From a virus: a DNA stretch of 41,531 nucleotides. The DNA is taken from the UHGV virus genome UHGV-0397187. The stretch is one strand, 5' to 3'. A program made the position numbers and the translations under genes. Positions 1-41,531 of the stretch are shown here, in pieces. The stretch's first letter is position 1. Every line of letters begins with the position of its first letter. Below the pieces are notes generated by a model that made no database searches, was not told where the DNA came from, and saw only the letters and a list, made by a program, of their open reading frames with translations.

Positions 1-55
1 GGTATCTGATTATCTCCTGTGCCCACATCCCTTTTCGCCGCTTCTCCCAAACCAA
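1..55 (-). CDS. tail-fibre variable C-terminal segment, 5' fragment (no own start codon; continues left of the window)
   Basis: Minus-strand translation of 1-55 reads [20 protein letters not shown], identical to the residues that follow the crossover site in the tail fibre at 39614-40309; DNA is the reverse complement of about 39951-40005. Confidence 0.5.
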   Translation of the reverse strand, partial: MVWEKRRKGMWAQEIIRY

Positions 56-67
56 CGTTTATGAAAA
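42..67. other. hix/gix-like 26-bp invertase crossover site (copy at window start)
   Basis: ttctcccaaacc-aa-cgtttatgaaaa: left half-site identical to the sites at 39939-39964 and 41482-41507; matches the recalled Hin hixL pattern TTCTTGAAAACCAAGGTTTTTGATAA in the conserved half. Confidence 0.6.
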
Positions 68-121
68 TGCAGAAATAACGAGCAAATGGCGTCATTCCTG
101 CTTTTGTCAGGGTGATCTACC

Positions 122-414
122 ATGTTTATAGGCTATGTACGCGCATCAACAAATGACCAGGACACCGATTTACAACGCAATGCGTTGATCTGTGCAGGAT
201 ATGAGCTGATTTTTTGAGGGTAAATCATCAGCATGAGACTAATAATTTAGCGTCCAATTCTGGGCTTTTTGGTTGCACCCTCTCCGCCCAGAATTGCGCG
301 CCAATTGGCCCAGAAAAAAACGCGAAGTTACAAGTTCCTCGCCAGAAGGTGGCGATCATCTATGATGTTGGCATATCGACTTTGTATAAGAAGTTTCCGG
401 TCGGAGATAAATGA
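122..414 (+). pseudogene. pin: serine DNA invertase (Pin/Hin/Gin family) remnant with internal deletion
   Basis: 122-217 encodes MFIGYVRASTNDQDTDLQRNALICAGYELIF then a stop (invertase N-terminus with the catalytic-Ser motif); the 214-414 frame ends ...RQKVAIIYDVGISTLYKKFPV, resembling the invertase C-terminal HTH; the central catalytic domain is missing. Confidence 0.7.
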
Positions 415-574
415 AACCGTAGCACGTCGTATGCAAGAACGTGCCACGGCTGGCTGATGGACGTTCGATAGCGCGAGTTTGAATGAAAATCAGCCGGAGG
501 TGATTTTACATAATTGTTGCGGAATCATTCAATATAGGGATTGCTTATTTCTGCCTGGATTGGTCTGAAATAGT

Positions 575-829
575 CCCGAAATTTTCTCTAAAAAACTCGA
601 AAAAAATGGTAACTAATTGAATGCATTAATATGCAATGGTACGTGTTTGGGATTAAAAGATGAGCGTAATTTTGCTTAACAAATTAATTTAAAAAGGGTT
701 TCTTGTTTGTTGACGAAAACAGGAATCGTATTCGGTCTTTTTTTAATTGTATTTAAAATCAATCAGTTGTAAACGTCTCCCCGAAATTCCCCGAAATTTA
801 CTCGAATTTCTGTATTCCGGTCTTTTTTG
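575..829. promoter_or_regulatory. AT-rich repeat-rich region downstream of int 3' end; candidate attL with integrase arm-type sites
   Basis: Tandem ccccgaaatt x2 at 779-798, cccgaaatt at 575-583, tattcggtcttttttt at 729-745 repeated as tattccggtctttttt at 813-829; sits where lambda-type prophages carry attL. Confidence 0.3.
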
Positions 830-875
830 GTTATATCACAACCAAAATACATTTAACAATCCATTTACGTTAAAA

Positions 876-1952
876 TCAGAGCAGTAAGTACGTTTTTTCT
901 CTCTCATCAAGGTACATTTTTGTTGTCTTCTCCGATGTGTGGCCAAGTAGACGCTGAGCAAATTCTTCTCCACATGTTTCTTTGTACAATCGTCCAGCCA
1001 GACTTCTGATCTCGTGAAAAGTTGGTGGGTTTTCACTGAACTGGATACCTGTTAATTTTCTGGCTGCGACAAATTTTTTTGTCAGGCCATCCGGGTGAAT
1101 GCTGCCGTCAGGGCTGTTTTTTCTAATCCCGGCACTGATTAGATAATCTCCCCGGCTTACCAGGCGGCATCGTTCAACTACTGTACCAAGTCGTAAACCA
1201 GCGACAGGAAGGCTGAGTGACAGGGGGATAGCAATCATCATTCCTGTCTTAATTTGCCTGATGTGGAGACGATCATCATAAATCTCACTGAACCGCATAT
1301 TTGTTATGTCTTCGCGACGTTGTCCTGTTACAAGGGCTAAGTCCATAGCTAATGGGAACCATGTCGGAAGTTGATCTGCTGCCTCCCTGATGCAGTTGTA
1401 TGTCTTTAGTTTCAGCCGTTCTCTTGTAACTACTATTTTCGGTGCTCTTGTTGGCGTTACTGGATTTTGAGATATACGTCCTTCAACAATGGCCTCGCGG
1501 AACATATCAGATAACACAGAACGCATTGATCCTGCCATCGTGTTTTTCCCTCCTTCAATCCACAAATCAAGAAACTCGGCAATATGGCGAGTGGTTATTT
1601 CTGTCAGTAAAACTCCTCCTAATTTTTCTTTTATTGTCTCCAGTTGATTTACCCGAATTTTATAAGTATTTCTGGACACTTTTCTCCTTATAAGAATCGT
1701 TTTGTAACGTTCAATCCAGTCTGCCATAGTAAATGAGTCGAACCCTTTTAGTTTTTCAATTAAGGTAGCAGGAGAGTAGTTTTTGTATATATAATGATTT
1801 GCTTCAATTGCCTGCGCTACTGCATCTCTTCTTGAAATTTTACCTAGTGTAAATTCTTCTTTCGTCAGAGGGTTGCGCCAGTAATATGCTTTGTCCCTCC
1901 TTCGATATGTTAAGTTTTTAGGCAAATTGGGATCGTATTTTTTCCGCTGCAT
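876..1952 (-). CDS. int: lambda-family tyrosine integrase
   Basis: 358-aa ORF; N-terminus [28 protein letters not shown]...EFTLGK parallels lambda Int MGRRRSHERRDLPPNLYIRNNGYYCYRDPRTGKEFGLG; C-terminal [15 protein letters not shown]...LLGH motif also conserved. Confidence 0.9.
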
Positions 1953-2205
1953 GTTTTAACTTCTCCAGTAACGGACTGTCTCTCCCTTGTCGCCCATTAG
2001 GCTGATGGTGTGTTATATCGGTATCAACCTTATTTGGGTTGATATAGAAAGCTTCCGGAACCACCCTGTAACTCCTCCCGTGTAGTTCAGGTGCAGGATA
2101 AATGTTTCCATTCCTTGCCCATCGTCTCAGCGTTGATATTGATGGTGGGTTATCCGGATATCTGAGTTTTCCCCACGTTTTGAGTGTCACAAGATTCATT
2201 GCCAT
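1918..2205 (-). CDS. xis: excisionase (Xis-like), overlapping int start
   Basis: 95-aa ORF immediately upstream of and overlapping int, as in lambda xis-int; small basic protein; position-based call. Confidence 0.5.
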   Translation of the reverse strand: MAMNLVTLKTWGKLRYPDNPPSISTLRRWARNGNIYPAPELHGRSYRVVPEAFYINPNKVDTDITHHQPNGRQGRDSPLLEKLKHAAEKIRSQFA

Positions 2206-2305: not shown

Positions 2306-2494
2306 TCACGAGGACAGAAGTTTCTCGCAATTAAAATTTATCAGCTTTACTTTCTGCTCTCTGGACACGCCTGCTTCTTTTTTCCCTGAGAGCATTTTTT
2401 CGCATTCTGATTTCGTTAATTTAGATTTTGAATATCTTGTCCAGTTAGTAGGAGTGCCACCTTCTTTTTCAATAGTGGCAGTTATTTTATACAT
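2306..2494 (-). CDS. hypothetical small protein (position of Rac ydaC); start uncertain
   Basis: ORF 2306-2566 on minus strand; a later Met is chosen to limit overlap with the downstream lar-like gene. Confidence 0.35.
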   Translation of the reverse strand: MYKITATIEKEGGTPTNWTRYSKSKLTKSECEKMLSGKKEAGVSREQKVKLINFNCEKLLSS

Positions 2495-22783: not shown

Positions 22784-24249
22784 TGGCACGAAACAAACAA
22801 GCCCTGCGGCGAACTGCGCAGGCCACAGCTGATGGTTATGAGAATTTTATTGCCCGCGTAGGGATGCAGGCACCTAACCAGCACTCAGCATCCACCTACC
22901 GGGCTAATTTCACCAGTCGTAACCGCATGCTGGTGGAATGGTCCTATCGTTCATCTTGGATCATCGGCGAAGCGGTCGATGCTATCCCGGATGATATGAC
23001 CCGCAAAGGCATTCGCATCACTTCGGAAATTGATGCAAAAGATCGCGGCATTCTCGAATCACAACTTGATGAGTTGCAGATCTGGGATGCGCTGAACGAC
23101 GTGCTGAAATGGTCTCGCCTCTACGGCGGCGCGGTCGGCTTCATCATGATCGAGGGGCAGGCACCAATGACCCCGCTGCGGCTCGAAACCATTGGAGAAG
23201 GCAAGTTTAAGGGCATTCTCCCGCTCGACCGCTGGATGATTAACCCGGTGCTGACACGCCGCATTAAAGAGATGGGGCCGGACCTCGGCAAGCCTGAGTT
23301 TTACGACGTGGTGACCACCGCAACGGGCATTCCGGCCTGGCGCATCCATCACAGCCGCCTGATCCGCTTTGATGGCGTCACGCTGCCATTCCAGCAGAAG
23401 ATGACCGAAAACGAATGGGGAATGTCGGTTGTAGAGCGTATCTGGGATCGGCTTACTGCGTTCGACAGCGCCACTGTCGGCGCGGCGCAGCTGGTCTACA
23501 AAGCGCATTTGCGTACCTACAGCGTGGAGAAGCTACGCGAGCTTATCGCACTTGGTGGTCCTGCGTATGAAGCGCTGCTGAAGAACATCGACCTGATCCG
23601 CCAGTTCCAGAGCAATGAAGGCATGACGCTCATGGACTCGCGGGATAAGTTCGAAACCCACCAGTACAGCTTCAGTGGTCTGGATGACATTCTTTCGCAG
23701 TTCGCTGAGCAGATAAGCGGTGCCGTTGGTATCCCGCTGGTGCGACTGTTCGGTCAATCCCCGAAAGGCTTCTCTACTGGTGACGCAGACCTCGCCAACT
23801 ATTACGACCGGGTGAGCTCGTTGCAGGAACGCCGCTTACGGCTGCCGATGCGTCGGATACTGGACATCATGCATCGTTCGGAGCTTGGCAAGCCGCTGCC
23901 GGACGATTTCACGTTTGAGTTTAACCCGCTATGGCAAATGTCTGATGTCGATCGCTCAACGGTGGCGTTAAACACCACCAACGCAATCAGTACAGCGCTG
24001 GGTGATGGTCTGATGACACTGAAAGCCGCTATGACTGATTTGCGAGAAAATTCTGACGTAACCGGCATCGGGGCATCCATTACCGACGAGGACATCGAGA
24101 ATGCCGAAGATGAAGCGCCGCCCGGCATCGGCGAACCTGATGACGAACCGCAGGAACCGTCAGGCGGAAATCCGGTATCGAACCAGCCTACGCAGGATAG
24201 CGCGGGCGGTCGGGGATATCGTAAATGGTCGCTACGATGGTTCAAATGA
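22783..24249 (+). CDS. portal protein
   Basis: 488-aa ORF immediately after large terminase (ATGA overlap), before the head morphogenesis gene; acidic C-terminal tail. Confidence 0.75.
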   Translation: MARNKQALRRTAQATADGYENFIARVGMQAPNQHSASTYRANFTSRNRMLVEWSYRSSWIIGEAVDAIPDDMTRKGIRITSEIDAKDRGILESQLDELQIWDALNDVLKWSRLYGGAVGFIMIEGQAPMTPLRLETIGEGKFKGILPLDRWMINPVLTRRIKEMGPDLGKPEFYDVVTTATGIPAWRIHHSRLIRFDGVTLPFQQKMTENEWGMSVVERIWDRLTAFDSATVGAAQLVYKAHLRTYSVEKLRELIALGGPAYEALLKNIDLIRQFQSNEGMTLMDSRDKFETHQYSFSGLDDILSQFAEQISGAVGIPLVRLFGQSPKGFSTGDADLANYYDRVSSLQERRLRLPMRRILDIMHRSELGKPLPDDFTFEFNPLWQMSDVDRSTVALNTTNAISTALGDGLMTLKAAMTDLRENSDVTGIGASITDEDIENAEDEAPPGIGEPDDEPQEPSGGNPVSNQPTQDSAGGRGYRKWSLRWFK

Positions 24250-24874
24250 CAGTGTCACCGAAATAATGGATGCGCTGGAGCGCTACAGCGAAATCATCAC
24301 CCCATGGGCGACGAAGGTTGCTGAGAACTTTACCGCCGACATTGCGCGCCAGAATGAAAAGCAGTGGCGTCAGCACAGCAGGAACATCAGCGCAGAGCTG
24401 CGCAACATGGTCGACCGCGCCCCGGTAGGCCAGGTGATGAAATCCATCGTCGCCGAGCAAATTAAGTACATCAAGTCACTGCCTCTTGAGGCCGCCGATC
24501 GGGTGTATGACATTCAGAACAAGGCCATCGAGGCCGTTGTGTCTGGTGGCCGCGCTGAGCCATTCGCGAAAGAGATAGCTGCGTCCGGTGACGTGTCACG
24601 CTCACGAGCGAACCTTATCGCCCGTACTGAACTTGGACGTGCAACCGGCGCGCTGGATCAGGCGCGTGCGCTGTCAATTGGTTCGAATGGTTATATCTGG
24701 CGTACAGCCGAAGATGGTGACGTCAGGCATTCTCATCGGGAAATGGAAGGTAAATTTGTCGAATGGGGCAAACCTCCAACGCTTGATGGCATGACCGGTC
24801 ACGCTGGCGAGCTCCCGAATTGTCGCTGTTATAAAGAAATCGTTTTTCCCACCTCCCAATCTTATCCCGCCTGA
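24101..24874 (+). CDS. head morphogenesis protein (Mu F / SPP1 gp7-like), start uncertain
   Basis: ARTELGRATG...YIWRTAEDGDVRHSHREMEGKF resembles the Mu F-like minor head domain; the ORF overlaps the portal by about 150 nt, so the true start may be the Met at 24266. Confidence 0.6.
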   Translation: MPKMKRRPASANLMTNRRNRQAEIRYRTSLRRIARAVGDIVNGRYDGSNDSVTEIMDALERYSEIITPWATKVAENFTADIARQNEKQWRQHSRNISAELRNMVDRAPVGQVMKSIVAEQIKYIKSLPLEAADRVYDIQNKAIEAVVSGGRAEPFAKEIAASGDVSRSRANLIARTELGRATGALDQARALSIGSNGYIWRTAEDGDVRHSHREMEGKFVEWGKPPTLDGMTGHAGELPNCRCYKEIVFPTSQSYPA

Positions 24875-39614: not shown

Positions 39615-40309
39615 TGGCGAAAAATGACTTTAAAGCGTTTGCAACTGATCGGAATGCCAATGTTATGTCGCAGGAGGAATGGGAAGCGTTGCCTGCGCTT
39701 TTATCCGGATTTACAGCAGGGAAAGCATCCAGTGCGCAAGTCAATAAGGTTATTCGGCAGGCCAGCTTTATTGCTGCAGCTCTGGCCCAGTTTGTAAGTG
39801 ACAAAACGCAACGGGATGTGCTTGATAATGGTGATCTGCCCGGTTTTGTTGAATTGCTGGGATCGGGGTTTGCTGTTGAATACCTGAGCCGCAAGAATCC
39901 GTTTGGCGATATCAAATCGGATGGCACGGTGAAAACGGCTCTCGAAAACCTTGGTTTGGGAGAAGCGGCGAAAAGGGATGTGGGCACAGGAGATAATCAG
40001 ATACCGGATATGGGAGCATTCGCTTCTGGTTCGGGATGGTTCAGGCTACCAGGTGGATATATTGTTCAGTTTGGCACTTTTTCAGGAAACACGACCCGCT
40101 TTATCAGTGGACACTTCCCTATACCATTCCCTAATCAGCCGATGGTTTCAGTCAGTGTTATGTCTGATGCCGTTCAGTCAGACCCGTCGAATCCTGCCCC
40201 GCAGGTTTTGTCTGTAAATTTTGAACATATCAGTAATTCAGCGTGGCGTGTGGCAACCAGTGATATCTCACAGCAATACAGATTCAGTTATATTTCGATA
40301 GGACGGTAG
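39614..40309 (+). CDS. tail fibre protein with invertible C-terminal half
   Basis: ATG at 39614 overlaps the previous stop; the hix-like site lies inside the coding region at 39939-39964, splitting a constant N-terminus from a variable C-terminus. Confidence 0.8.
39939..39964. other. hix/gix-like 26-bp crossover site (left, inside tail fibre gene)
   Basis: ctctcgaaaacc-tt-ggtttgggagaa, exact reverse complement of 41482-41507. Confidence 0.8.
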
Positions 40310-41127: not shown

Positions 41128-41531
41128 CTATACACCGATTGCTACCCAAAAACAGGACCTTTCATATTTGACAATTTCTCCCTGAGATATACCGCCAACA
41201 ATTATATAGAACTGTGATTTGCTGATATCAGAACAGTTCGCTATGCCCATTGCAGATATACCCGCCACCGACGTTGTATGTGGTACAGCCAACAGCGCAA
41301 GTGAACGATTTGGGAATGTTACCGGGTAAGTCACCGTATAGTTTGATGCTCCACTGACAATACCCCACTGAATAATCAGACCCGAAGGTAGTTTTTGAAA
41401 ACCCGTTGATGAAAGTGAACTGGCAAACGCCGCCATATCCGGAATTTGGTTTTGCCCGTTACCTACATTCCGTTTTGCCGCTTCTCCCAAACCAAGGTTT
41501 TCGAGAGCCGTTTTCACCGTGCCATCCGATT
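41128..41531 (-). CDS. alternative tail fibre C-terminal segment (no own start; expressed only after inversion)
   Basis: Minus-strand translation ...[41 protein letters not shown]... shares the constant-region junction with the fibre at 39614-40309, then diverges. Confidence 0.75.
41482..41507. other. hix/gix-like 26-bp crossover site (right)
   Basis: ttctcccaaacc-aa-ggttttcgagag; near-palindromic half-sites around a 2-bp core. Confidence 0.8.

What the first reader, a model, noticed from the sequence alone, without database searches (positions are those of the whole stretch)
415..875. Candidate attL with arm-type repeats directly abutting the dead invertase
The int 3' end faces an AT-rich region with tandem ccccgaaatt repeats (779-798), a related copy at 575-583, and the tattcggtcttttttt / tattccggtctttttt pair (729-745 and 813-829). 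This is the expected place and style for integrase arm sites and the att core. The integration target appears to be next to, or within, another prophage remnant.
Basis: inference. Interest (0 to 1): 0.4.

Follow-up and report, generated by a model that had tools for sequence, protein, structure and literature searches.

The report
Lambda-style phage attP targeting sdsR
This AT-rich stretch is the complete attachment site (attP) of a Rac/lambda-like E. coli phage that inserts into the terminator hairpin of the small-RNA gene sdsR (ryeB); it is not a prophage-host junction, and it is an ordinary, well-understood kind of site.

Summary
The site is attP (P-O-P'), not attL.

- **Crossover:** comparing attB (K-12), attL and attR of one lysogen, and the window confines it to the 11-bp block ACAGGAATCGT (719-729). 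This block lies in the loop region of the SdsR/RyeB terminator hairpin.
- **Flanks:** in true attL sites (67 of 68 IMG/VR proviruses that retain the core), the left flank is host sdsR. In the window it is the phage P arm, which in lysogens sits at the opposite prophage end, just after pinE.
- **Invertase:** the "dead invertase" is therefore this phage's own last gene, not another prophage remnant.
- **Window:** both ends are exact 55-nt reverse complements of internal sequence at the tail-fibre inversion sites. The window is collinear with a whole prophage, so it reads as one unit-length phage contig.
- **Layout:** it superimposes on lambda attP. IHF-like sites lie at -47..-35 and +33..+45. 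Three tandem CYCGAAWTT repeats lie at +55..+85 and two more near -149 and -128.
- **Proteins:** Int is a full-length lambda Int homologue with the arm-binding domain, and a lambda-type Xis gene is next to it.

sdsR/ryeB is already a published phage target. Interest is low.

The parts
122..414 (+). Pin-family invertase pseudogene, the phage's own last late-region gene. It consists of 31 N-terminal codons (122-217), a 116-nt filler (218-333) and the C-terminal HTH remnant (334-414).
   Evidence: ORFs. Intact pinE occupies the same place before the P arm in strains 12089 and 300709. Filler context.
415..566 (.). Spacer that is not part of attP. Positions 415-510 are a mosaic element shared with lambda (24169-24267), HK97, phi80 and Stx-phage right ends, and include a hairpin at 423-447.
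   Evidence: There is no similarity to the Salmonella phage left of about 565.
567..718 (+). P arm of attP.
   Evidence: It lies next to attR, between pinE and the core, in lysogen 300709. It keeps the same register, without indels, as Salmonella phage ZC-S1_prp from 567 onward.
575..584 (+). Arm-type repeat, P1-like: CCCGAAATTT (-149..-140).
   Evidence: A CGAA motif is kept at this distance in divergent P arms.
596..605 (+). Arm-type repeat, P2-like: CTCGAAAAAA (-128..-119).
610..622 (-). IHF-like site, H1-like: ATTCAATTAGTTA, one mismatch to WATCAANNNNTTR.
   Evidence: It lies in the best-conserved P-arm island, 596-624.
621..646 (+). Candidate Xis-binding region: tandem ATGCATTAAT/ATGCAATGGT followed by the conserved GCAATGGTACGTGT (-103..-78). 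This assignment is inference only.
   Evidence: Sequence. GCAATRGTAMGTRT is conserved in otherwise unalignable P arms. A lambda-type Xis is encoded nearby.
677..689 (-). IHF-like site, H2-like: AATTAATTTGTTA, one mismatch, at -47..-35.
   Evidence: Lambda H2 has the same position and strand when measured on L015.
712..737 (+). Core. It comprises an imperfect inverted half-site GACGAAAAC (712-720), the proposed 7-bp overlap AGGAATC (721-727) and the half-site GTATTCGGTC (728-737).
   Evidence: In attL the same positions form the 11-bp stem and 7-nt loop of the SdsR terminator. The cleavage positions are inferred, not shown.
719..729 (+). Block identical between attP and attB, ACAGGAATCGT. The crossover is confined to this block.
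   Evidence: Comparison of attB, attL, attR and attP. It occurs once in the window.
728..744 (+). Phage-borne copy of the sdsR 3' end: the descending arm of the terminator stem plus a run of seven T. It replaces the host copy on integration.
   Evidence: SdsR scores 118 bits across attL in L001 but only 25 bits, below threshold, in the window.
757..769 (+). IHF site, H'-like: AATCAATCAGTTG, a perfect consensus match at +33..+45.
   Evidence: It is one of only 3 perfect matches in the window. Lambda H' has the same position. It is kept in divergent relatives.
779..809 (+). Three tandem arm-type repeats, P'1 to P'3: CCCCGAAATT, CCCCGAAATTT, ACTCGAATTT (+55..+85).
   Evidence: They are conserved in 68 att sites, including relatives with 75% Int identity.
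813..828 (+). Second, imperfect copy of the terminator half, TATTCCGGTCTTTTTT (+89..+104). It is conserved but its function is unknown.
   Evidence: A deletion between the two copies is seen in L029.
876..1952 (-). Integrase gene, 358 aa, intact.
   Evidence: Homologous to lambda Int over 8-353 with E 1e-71. Matches PF00589, PF22022 and PF09003, the arm-binding domain.
1918..2205 (-). Excisionase gene.
   Evidence: PF07825, E 6.5e-14. Annotated as excisionase in related prophages.

Best explanation
Positions ~567-828 are the attP site of a temperate, Rac-like phage with lambdoid early genes and a contractile-tail late module.

**Proposed mechanism, by analogy with lambda**

- The adjacent Int is a heterobivalent tyrosine recombinase of the lambda Int type.
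- Its N-terminal domain would bind the five CYCGAAWTT arm repeats: two in the P arm and three in tandem in the P' arm.
- Its core-binding and catalytic domains would bind the imperfect inverted half-sites flanking AGGAATC.
- IHF would bend the arms at three sites.

**Target and consequence**

- Recombination pairs the phage core with the identical 11 bp, ACAGGAATCGT, in the terminator hairpin of the host sRNA gene sdsR (ryeB).
- The hairpin stem arms would serve as the B and B' half-sites and the 7-nt loop as the overlap.
- The phage carries its own copy of the sdsR 3' end, so sdsR stays intact after insertion. The antisense ryeA gene loses its own 5' end and promoter.
- Xis, with Int and IHF, would reverse the reaction.

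**What is shown and what is inferred**

- Shown: the crossover interval, the P and P' assignment, the host target, the protein families and the site positions.
- Inferred: which protein binds which site, and the exact cleavage points.

In this window the site is in its unrecombined P-O-P' state. The window is most likely the circular or concatemeric phage genome, assembled as one contig that is open at the tail-fibre invertible segment.
For: **1. Crossover mapping**

- attB in K-12 reads ggaccgaaT-ACAGGAATCGT-Gttcggtct**C**.
- attL in strain 300709 has the host left side and the phage right side.
- attR in the same strain has the phage left side and the host right side.
- The window has phage sequence on both sides.

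**2. True attL sites look different**

- 67 of 68 IMG/VR loci that carry this Int and retain the core have host sdsR to the left of the core. One has the P arm.
- Rfam SdsR scores 118 bits across attL but only 25 bits in the window, below the 38-bit threshold.
- The terminator hairpin folds at -15.8 kcal/mol in attL and is absent in the window.

**3. P-O-P' is contiguous elsewhere only in phage DNA or prophage arrays**

- It is contiguous in a deposited phage genome, PP818812.1.
- Only 5 of 5426 complete E. coli genomes have it. The two that were inspected are prophage arrays.

**4. The window is one unit-length contig**

- Positions 1-55 are the exact reverse complement of 39951-40005.
- Positions 41477-41531 are the exact reverse complement of 39915-39969.
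- Both matches are 55 nt long and lie at the inversion crossover sites.
- The window is a circular permutation of a whole prophage of strain 12089.

**5. Lambda-like geometry, measured on lambda itself**

| Site | This phage | Lambda |
|---|---|---|
| H2 | -47..-35 | -47..-35 |
| H' | +33..+45 | +33..+45 |
| P'1-3 | +55..+85 | +54..+84 |
| P1 / P2 | -149 / -128 | -142 / -112 |

**6. Conservation of the sites**

- The Salmonella phage keeps the same register from 567 to 827. In its P arm, similarity is limited to islands at the CGAAAT motif, at 596-624 and at the core.
- Unalignable P arms still carry paired CNCGAA motifs near -150 and -128, and an IHF-like site.
- The P' repeats and H' are kept in relatives with 75% Int identity.

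**7. Proteins**

- Int matches lambda Int with E 1e-71. The catalytic R, K, H, R, H and Y positions are aligned, and PF09003 is above its threshold.
- Xis matches PF07825.

**8. Literature**

ryeB/sdsR is a known phage attachment site, used by PhiW104 in Salmonella (PMC7380047, PMC3603311, PMC3333887).
Against: - No binding or cleavage data exist. The arm, core, IHF and Xis assignments rest on sequence and position only.
- The arm motif (CYCGAAAT) resembles the core half-site (CCGAAYAC). In lambda the two site types are unrelated, so which Int domain reads the repeats is open.
- The P2-like site has the same orientation as P1 and precedes the H1-like site. In lambda, P2 is inverted and follows H1.
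- Two of the three IHF-like sites have one mismatch, and the region is AT-rich, which raises chance matches.
- The source record of the window was not found. 'Free circular phage DNA' as opposed to 'junction inside a prophage array' is therefore inferred from contig structure, not observed.
Confidence: 0.85

Rival explanations
1. The site is the internal junction of two prophages lying head-to-tail at sdsR in a chromosome. The attR of the left element and the attL of the right element would share one core, giving a P-O-P' junction.
For: Exactly this arrangement exists in E. coli 12089, which has two copies of the same phage type. It also exists in strain 6817, which has an nleC-carrying phage followed by a Rac-like phage. 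The sequence of such a junction cannot be told apart from attP.
Against: - The window equals one unit genome, and both ends are 55-mers at the inversion sites.
- In an array, the P and P' arms would each also join host DNA. A k=55 assembly graph would then branch at the core, yet the contig runs straight through it.
- This arrangement is rare: 5 of 5426 complete genomes.
Confidence: 0.11
2. One reading: a true attL in which the phage inserted next to, or into, the remnant of another prophage that carries the dead invertase.
For: A pseudogenised invertase does abut the site. Its N-terminal part plus filler (41-333) also occurs as an isolated remnant in E. coli chromosomes.
Against: - Positions 415-718 are not remnant-specific. 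They follow intact pinE at the right end of single prophages of this type and adjoin attR.
- The same stretch precedes int in a phage genome record.
- Host-type sequence to the left of the core is absent.
- The window's far end is the tail-fibre module that precedes pin in relatives.
Confidence: 0.03
3. The short repeats are chance features of AT-rich intergenic DNA and have no role in recombination.
For: The region has 31-35% GC. Weak consensus scans here give numbers close to those of shuffled sequence: 2 promoter-like sites found against 1.7 expected.
Against: - 5 of the 8 window-wide motif matches cluster here on one strand.
- Their positions match lambda's sites.
- They are conserved across divergent relatives while the spacers drift.
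Confidence: 0.01

Closest known systems
Bacteriophage lambda attP (P-O-P') with Int, Xis and IHF
   Same: - Int is homologous over its full length (E 1e-71) and has the arm-binding domain. Xis is of the lambda type.
- The arms span about 260 bp.
- Three tandem P' arm repeats lie at +55..+85 and two P-arm repeats near -149 and -128.
- IHF-like sites lie at -47..-35 and +33..+45, matching lambda's H2 and H' as measured on L015.
- int and xis lie next to the P' arm.
   Different: - The core and arm sequences are unrelated to lambda's.
- The target is an sRNA terminator hairpin, not the gal-bio intergenic attB.
- The P2-like site is direct rather than inverted, and it precedes the H1-like site.
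- The int stop codon lies about 70 bp beyond P'3, whereas in lambda it overlaps P'3.
- An extra conserved copy of the core half-site lies at +89..+104.
- The arm and core motifs resemble each other.
PhiW104 and other elements that insert in ryeB/ryeA (sdsR/sraC) of Salmonella enterica (Balbontin et al. 2008, as described in PMC7380047, PMC3333887 and PMC3603311)
   Same: - The host target is the same: the 3' end of ryeB/sdsR, which is internal to the antisense ryeA.
- The phage supplies the ryeB 3' end and displaces the ryeA 5' end.
- The Salmonella phage ZC-S1_prp shares the core, H' and the three P' repeats.
   Different: - Here the host-range context is E. coli/Shigella-type. Identity with K-12 attB is 11 bp, against the 23 bp reported for Salmonella.
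- The primary paper was not available to me, so I could not compare the PhiW104 sequence directly.
Integrases that target the symmetric anticodon stem-loop of tRNA genes and carry a replacement 3' end
   Same: The crossover lies in a hairpin whose two stem arms can act as inverted core half-sites around a 7-nt loop. The phage carries a replacement 3' end, so the RNA gene survives. This comparison rests on general knowledge.
   Different: The hairpin is a rho-independent terminator of an sRNA, not a tRNA stem-loop.
Rac prophage of E. coli K-12
   Same: The early region is of the same type: recE, recT, ralR with RalA, kil and ydaE-type genes.
   Different: This phage has a 358-aa lambda-type Int and the sdsR target. 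From memory, and not tested here, K-12 Rac has a different integrase and sits in ttcA. This phage also appears complete, with a full tail module.

Membership tests
Lambda-type attP (heterobivalent tyrosine-integrase attachment site) | An adjacent tyrosine recombinase with the catalytic R-K-H-R-H-Y residues. | tested here: met
   PF00589, E 4.9e-16. The alignment to lambda Int (5j0n, 1z1b) shows R212, K235, H308, R311, H333 and Y342 matched.
Lambda-type attP (heterobivalent tyrosine-integrase attachment site) | An N-terminal arm-type DNA-binding domain in Int. | tested here: met
   PF09003 scores 29.0 bits against a cut-off of 22, over residues 3-64. The match to PDB 1kjk has E 3.9e-4.
Lambda-type attP (heterobivalent tyrosine-integrase attachment site) | A short core identical to attB, with the crossover inside it, flanked by inverted core-type half-sites. 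| tested here: met
   The identity is 11 bp, at 719-729, bounded by attL and attR markers. The half-sites GACGAAAAC and GTATTCGGTC flank AGGAATC.
Lambda-type attP (heterobivalent tyrosine-integrase attachment site) | Multiple arm-type repeats in both arms, far from the core. | tested here: met
   Five CYCGAAWWW copies at 575, 596, 780, 790 and 801, conserved in relatives. This is met at the sequence level only.
Lambda-type attP (heterobivalent tyrosine-integrase attachment site) | Int actually binds the arm and core sites, and strand cleavage is staggered by 7 bp. | not testable with these tools
   Needs footprinting and cleavage mapping.
Lambda-type attP (heterobivalent tyrosine-integrase attachment site) | Sites for an accessory bending protein (IHF) between the core and the arm sites. 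| tested here: met
   A perfect WATCAANNNNTTR match at 757-769, and one-mismatch sites at 677-689(-) and 610-622(-), at positions equivalent to lambda's. Binding was not tested.
Lambda-type attP (heterobivalent tyrosine-integrase attachment site) | The P and P' arms are separated to opposite prophage ends in lysogens. | tested here: met
   In strain 300709, the P' arm lies with int at attL (L001) and the P arm lies after pinE at attR (L006), about 31 kb apart.
attL (prophage-host junction) | Host (attB-side) sequence on the int-distal side of the core. | tested here: not met
   The left flank is the phage P arm, GTTGACGAAA, and not host sequence, CTGGACCGAAT. SdsR scores below threshold in the window, at 25 bits, against 118 bits in a true attL.
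sdsR/ryeB-targeting temperate phages | attB lies in the 3' end of sdsR/ryeB, and the phage carries a replacement 3' end. | tested here: met
   K-12 annotation and sequence. Lysogen junctions. Literature: PMC7380047.

The most novel reading that the evidence does not exclude
The second, imperfect copy of the SdsR-terminator half-site in the P' arm (813-828) is kept even in relatives with 75% Int identity. It may be a functional element rather than a relic. It could be an extra Int-binding site. It could also be a built-in deletion partner: recombination with the core copy (729-744) removes H' and all three P' arm sites and locks the prophage in place, as seen in one provirus (L029). A related open point is that the arm-type and core-type motifs share CCGAA, so this Int might read both site classes in a way lambda Int does not.
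Probability: 0.1. Interest if true: 0.35.

Novelty: new member of a known kind. Interest (0 to 1): 0.15.

Why it matters
The main value is correct annotation.

- The window is a complete, circularly permuted temperate phage genome with an intact attP-int-xis module. It is not a prophage wedged against another remnant.
- The result gives a base-level map of an sRNA-terminator-targeting att site: the core, candidate arm, IHF and Xis sites, and a minimal extent of about 260 bp. This map could be used for integration vectors, or to predict how lysogeny alters the SdsR/RyeA pair.
- It also shows how closely the lambda attP layout is kept when all the recognition sequences have changed.

None of this challenges current understanding.

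Tried and rejected
- **Second copy of the core.** I searched the window for one, allowing up to 3 mismatches. There is only one, so no attR lies in the window.
- **Source record.** An exact-match scan for the pin/filler junction found nothing in genome contigs and three unrelated remnants in IMG/VR. A scan for the filler/pin C-terminal junction in IMG/VR found nothing. No complete E. coli genome holds 1-2300 at 99% or better over its full length.
- **Related loci.** The search for related loci in genome contigs gave only two near-identical attL loci.
- **Terminators and promoters.** The terminator scan of 380-920 found none. The promoter scan was no better than shuffles, so the minus-strand TTTACA-16-TACAAT at 773-746 is only noted.
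- **RNA folds.** Folds of 795-832 and 420-455 were not better than shuffles. I therefore rejected 'backup terminator' as an explanation for the second TATTCCGGTC copy.
- **Rfam.** The sub-threshold CssrB hit at 392-448 covers only a terminal hairpin and was not pursued.
- **Primary paper.** Balbontin et al. 2008 (PMC2395037) is not held. It is cited only through papers that describe it.
- **Direct terminal repeat.** I found none that would prove circularity. The circular-form argument rests on the 55-mer inverted ends and on collinearity instead.

Full report
**Observation.**
- CCCCGAAATT is duplicated in tandem at 779-788 and 789-798, and is followed by ACTCGAATTT at 800-809.
- CCCGAAATT is at 575-583.
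- TATTCGGTCTTTTTTT is at 729-744 and TATTCCGGTCTTTTTT at 813-828.
- GC content is 35% over 415-875 against 48.6% for the window.
- The int gene (876-1952, minus strand) ends facing this region, and xis overlaps its start.

**What the neighbourhood is.** The window carries int, xis, ralR with the RalA sRNA (219 bits), recT and recE, followed by a complete late and contractile-tail module. Int aligns to lambda Int over residues 8-353 (E 1e-71), with the catalytic residues matched. It carries the lambda arm-binding domain, PF09003, above threshold. Xis is PF07825.

**Where the phage integrates.** In E. coli strain 300709 and many other E. coli genomes, similarity to the window starts abruptly at position 714. 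The DNA to the left is host DNA, yebY followed by the sRNA gene sdsR/ryeB. K-12 has the empty site between yebY and pphA, with sdsR and the antisense ryeA annotated. In strain 300709 the other prophage end reads pinE, then a 300-bp stretch equal to window 415-718, then the core, then pphA-side host DNA.

I lined up the four sites:

| Site | Left of core | Core | Right of core |
|---|---|---|---|
| attB | ggaccgaaT | ACAGGAATCGT | Gttcggtct**C** |
| attL | host | ACAGGAATCGT | phage (A...T) |
| attR | phage (cgaaA) | ACAGGAATCGT | host |
| window | phage | ACAGGAATCGT | phage |

The exchange is therefore confined to the 11 bp at 719-729. The window holds the unrecombined P-O-P' configuration.

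**Why it is not attL.**
- Of 73 IMG/VR loci encoding this Int, 68 retain the core. Of these, 67 have host sdsR on the left and only one has the P arm.
- Rfam finds full-length SdsR (118 bits) and RyeA (179 bits) across a real attL. In the window there are only sub-threshold fragments of 25 and 27 bits.
- The SdsR terminator folds as an 11-bp stem with the 7-nt loop AGGAAUC in attL (-15.8 kcal/mol, z -3.6). It is not formed in the window.
- The full 415-875 stretch is contiguous in only 5 of 5426 complete E. coli genomes. The two I inspected are prophage arrays at sdsR. It is also contiguous in a deposited phage genome, PP818812.1, and in one UViG.

**What the window is.** Positions 1-55 are the exact reverse complement of 39951-40005. 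Positions 41477-41531 are the exact reverse complement of 39915-39969. Both stretches are 55 nt long and both sit on crossover sites of the tail-fibre invertible segment.

I read this as the signature of a k=55 assembly contig that stops where the two orientations of the invertible segment diverge. The window is also collinear with the whole first prophage of strain 12089, but circularly permuted. Window 714 onward equals the prophage read from its attL, and window 1-713 equals its right end, pin plus the P arm.

So the pin pseudogene belongs to this phage. The DNA that was sequenced had pin-P-core-P'-int joined together. The circular or concatemeric phage genome is the most likely source. A prophage array is less likely, because its extra host junctions should have broken the contig at the core.

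**Anatomy compared with lambda.** I measured lambda's sites on J02459 and placed position 0 at 724, the middle of the loop AGGAATC.

| Site | This phage | Lambda |
|---|---|---|
| H2-like, minus strand | -47..-35 | -47..-35 |
| H', plus strand, perfect IHF consensus | +33..+45 | +33..+45 |
| P'1-3 | +55..+85 | +54..+84 |
| P-arm repeats | -149..-140 and -128..-119 | P1 -142..-132, P2 -112..-102 |
| H1-like | -114..-102 | -125..-113 |

- The H' site is one of only 3 perfect consensus matches in the window.
- The 80-bp spacing from H2 to H' independently places the centre at 724. This agrees with the crossover interval and with the hairpin loop.
- The positions carry an uncertainty of 1-2 bp, because lambda's overlap is not exactly centred on its 15-bp core. 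That point is from my own knowledge.

**Conservation.**
- Salmonella phage ZC-S1_prp keeps the same register as the window, with no indel, from 567 to 827. In its P arm, similarity is limited to islands: CGAAAT at 577-582, the block 596-624 (P2-like plus H1-like) and the core-proximal bases. Left of about 565 it is at random level.
- Five further attR-side P arms from E. coli proviruses are unalignable overall, at 42-49% identity. They still show paired CNCGAA motifs near -150 and -128, an IHF-like GATCAATCAGTTG-type site, and a conserved GCAATRGTAMGTRT block.
- On the P' side, relatives with 75% Int identity keep H' and three CCTCGAAATT-type repeats, while the spacers differ.
- The functional site is therefore about 567-828. 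Positions 415-566 are a separate mosaic element, shared with non-coding DNA of lambda (24169-24267), HK97, phi80 and Stx phages.

**Mechanism (inferred).** Int bridges the arm repeats and the core half-sites, and IHF bends the arms. Strand exchange then occurs across AGGAATC, pairing with the same bases in the sdsR terminator loop. The hairpin stem arms provide the inverted B and B' half-sites (CCGAATAC and CCGAACAC).

The phage-borne 3' end (728-744) rebuilds the terminator, with a U-A pair in place of U-G and a longer U tract. sdsR therefore survives. ryeA is cut off from its own promoter, as reported for PhiW104 in Salmonella (PMC7380047; also PMC3333887, PMC3603311). Xis probably binds around 621-646.

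**Unexplained points.**
- The arm motif resembles the core half-site.
- The conserved second copy at 813-828 has no assigned role. One provirus, L029, has lost the 85 bp between the two copies.

**Verdict.** This is a new member of a well-known kind, with a host target that is already published, so interest is low.

Noticed in passing
window 1-59, 39915-40023, 41423-41531: The tail-fibre invertible segment has three crossover sites, GCTTCTCCCAAACCAASGTT, at 40-59(+), 39947-39966(-) and 41480-41499(+). The window's two ends are exact 55-nt reverse complements of 39951-40005 and 39915-39969. This implies a k=55 contig and reads from both orientations of the segment.
   Followed up: yes
window 122-414: The pin invertase is dead. 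It consists of 31 N-terminal codons, a 116-nt filler (218-333) and the C-terminal HTH. The N-terminal part plus filler also occurs as an isolated remnant in E. coli chromosomes and IMG/VR contigs, next to unrelated genes (vgrG, mhpT), at up to 98.9% identity. No complete E. coli genome joins the filler to the pin C-terminus. Both inversion states seem to be present, so inversion would have to be catalysed in trans by another Pin-family enzyme.
   Followed up: partly
L029 (IMGVR_UViG_2728369554_000022), attL; equivalent to window 729-828: This provirus has an 85-bp deletion exactly between the two TATTC(C)GGTCTTTTTT copies. The deletion removes the H' IHF site and all three P' arm repeats, so the prophage is probably unable to excise.
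   Followed up: partly
window 746-773, minus strand: A promoter-like TTTACA-16-TACAAT (10 of 12 matches) points across the core. In a lysogen it would read antisense to sdsR, in place of the displaced ryeA promoter. It is not enriched over shuffles, is not position-conserved in the Salmonella phage, and overlaps H'.
   Followed up: partly
window 415-510: An element of about 95 bp with a hairpin at 423-447 (sub-threshold Rfam CssrB hit) and an inverted repeat at 445-458/489-502. It is 77-83% identical to non-coding DNA in lambda (24169-24267), HK97, phi80 and the right ends of Stx phages. It may be a late-operon end or a boundary of phage mosaicism.
   Followed up: partly
window 2310-2488 (+): A full-length RalA sRNA (Rfam RF02694, 219 bits), the antitoxin of the RalR toxin encoded on the opposite strand. 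This is typical of Rac-like early regions.
   Followed up: no
L002 (E. coli 6817) and L003/L005 (E. coli 12089): Prophages lie head-to-tail at sdsR. In 12089 there are two copies of the same phage type, both with frameshifted int. In 6817 and similar strains, an nleC-carrying lambdoid phage ends in the same P arm, directly before the Rac-like phage's int. Different phages therefore share this att/int module.
   Followed up: partly
window 1649-1674: Inside the int coding region, TTACCCGAATTTTATAAGTATTTCTG is 77% identical to the P' arm stretch 787-812 and contains one more CYCGAAWWW match. This is probably chance.
   Followed up: no
L012 (Shigella flexneri SFBU1023, CP182556.1): The attL and flanking yebY/sdsR region in this record carries many small indels relative to E. 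coli. For example, the core reads ACAGGAATCATGTTGGTC. This looks like uncorrected long-read assembly error rather than biology.
   Followed up: no
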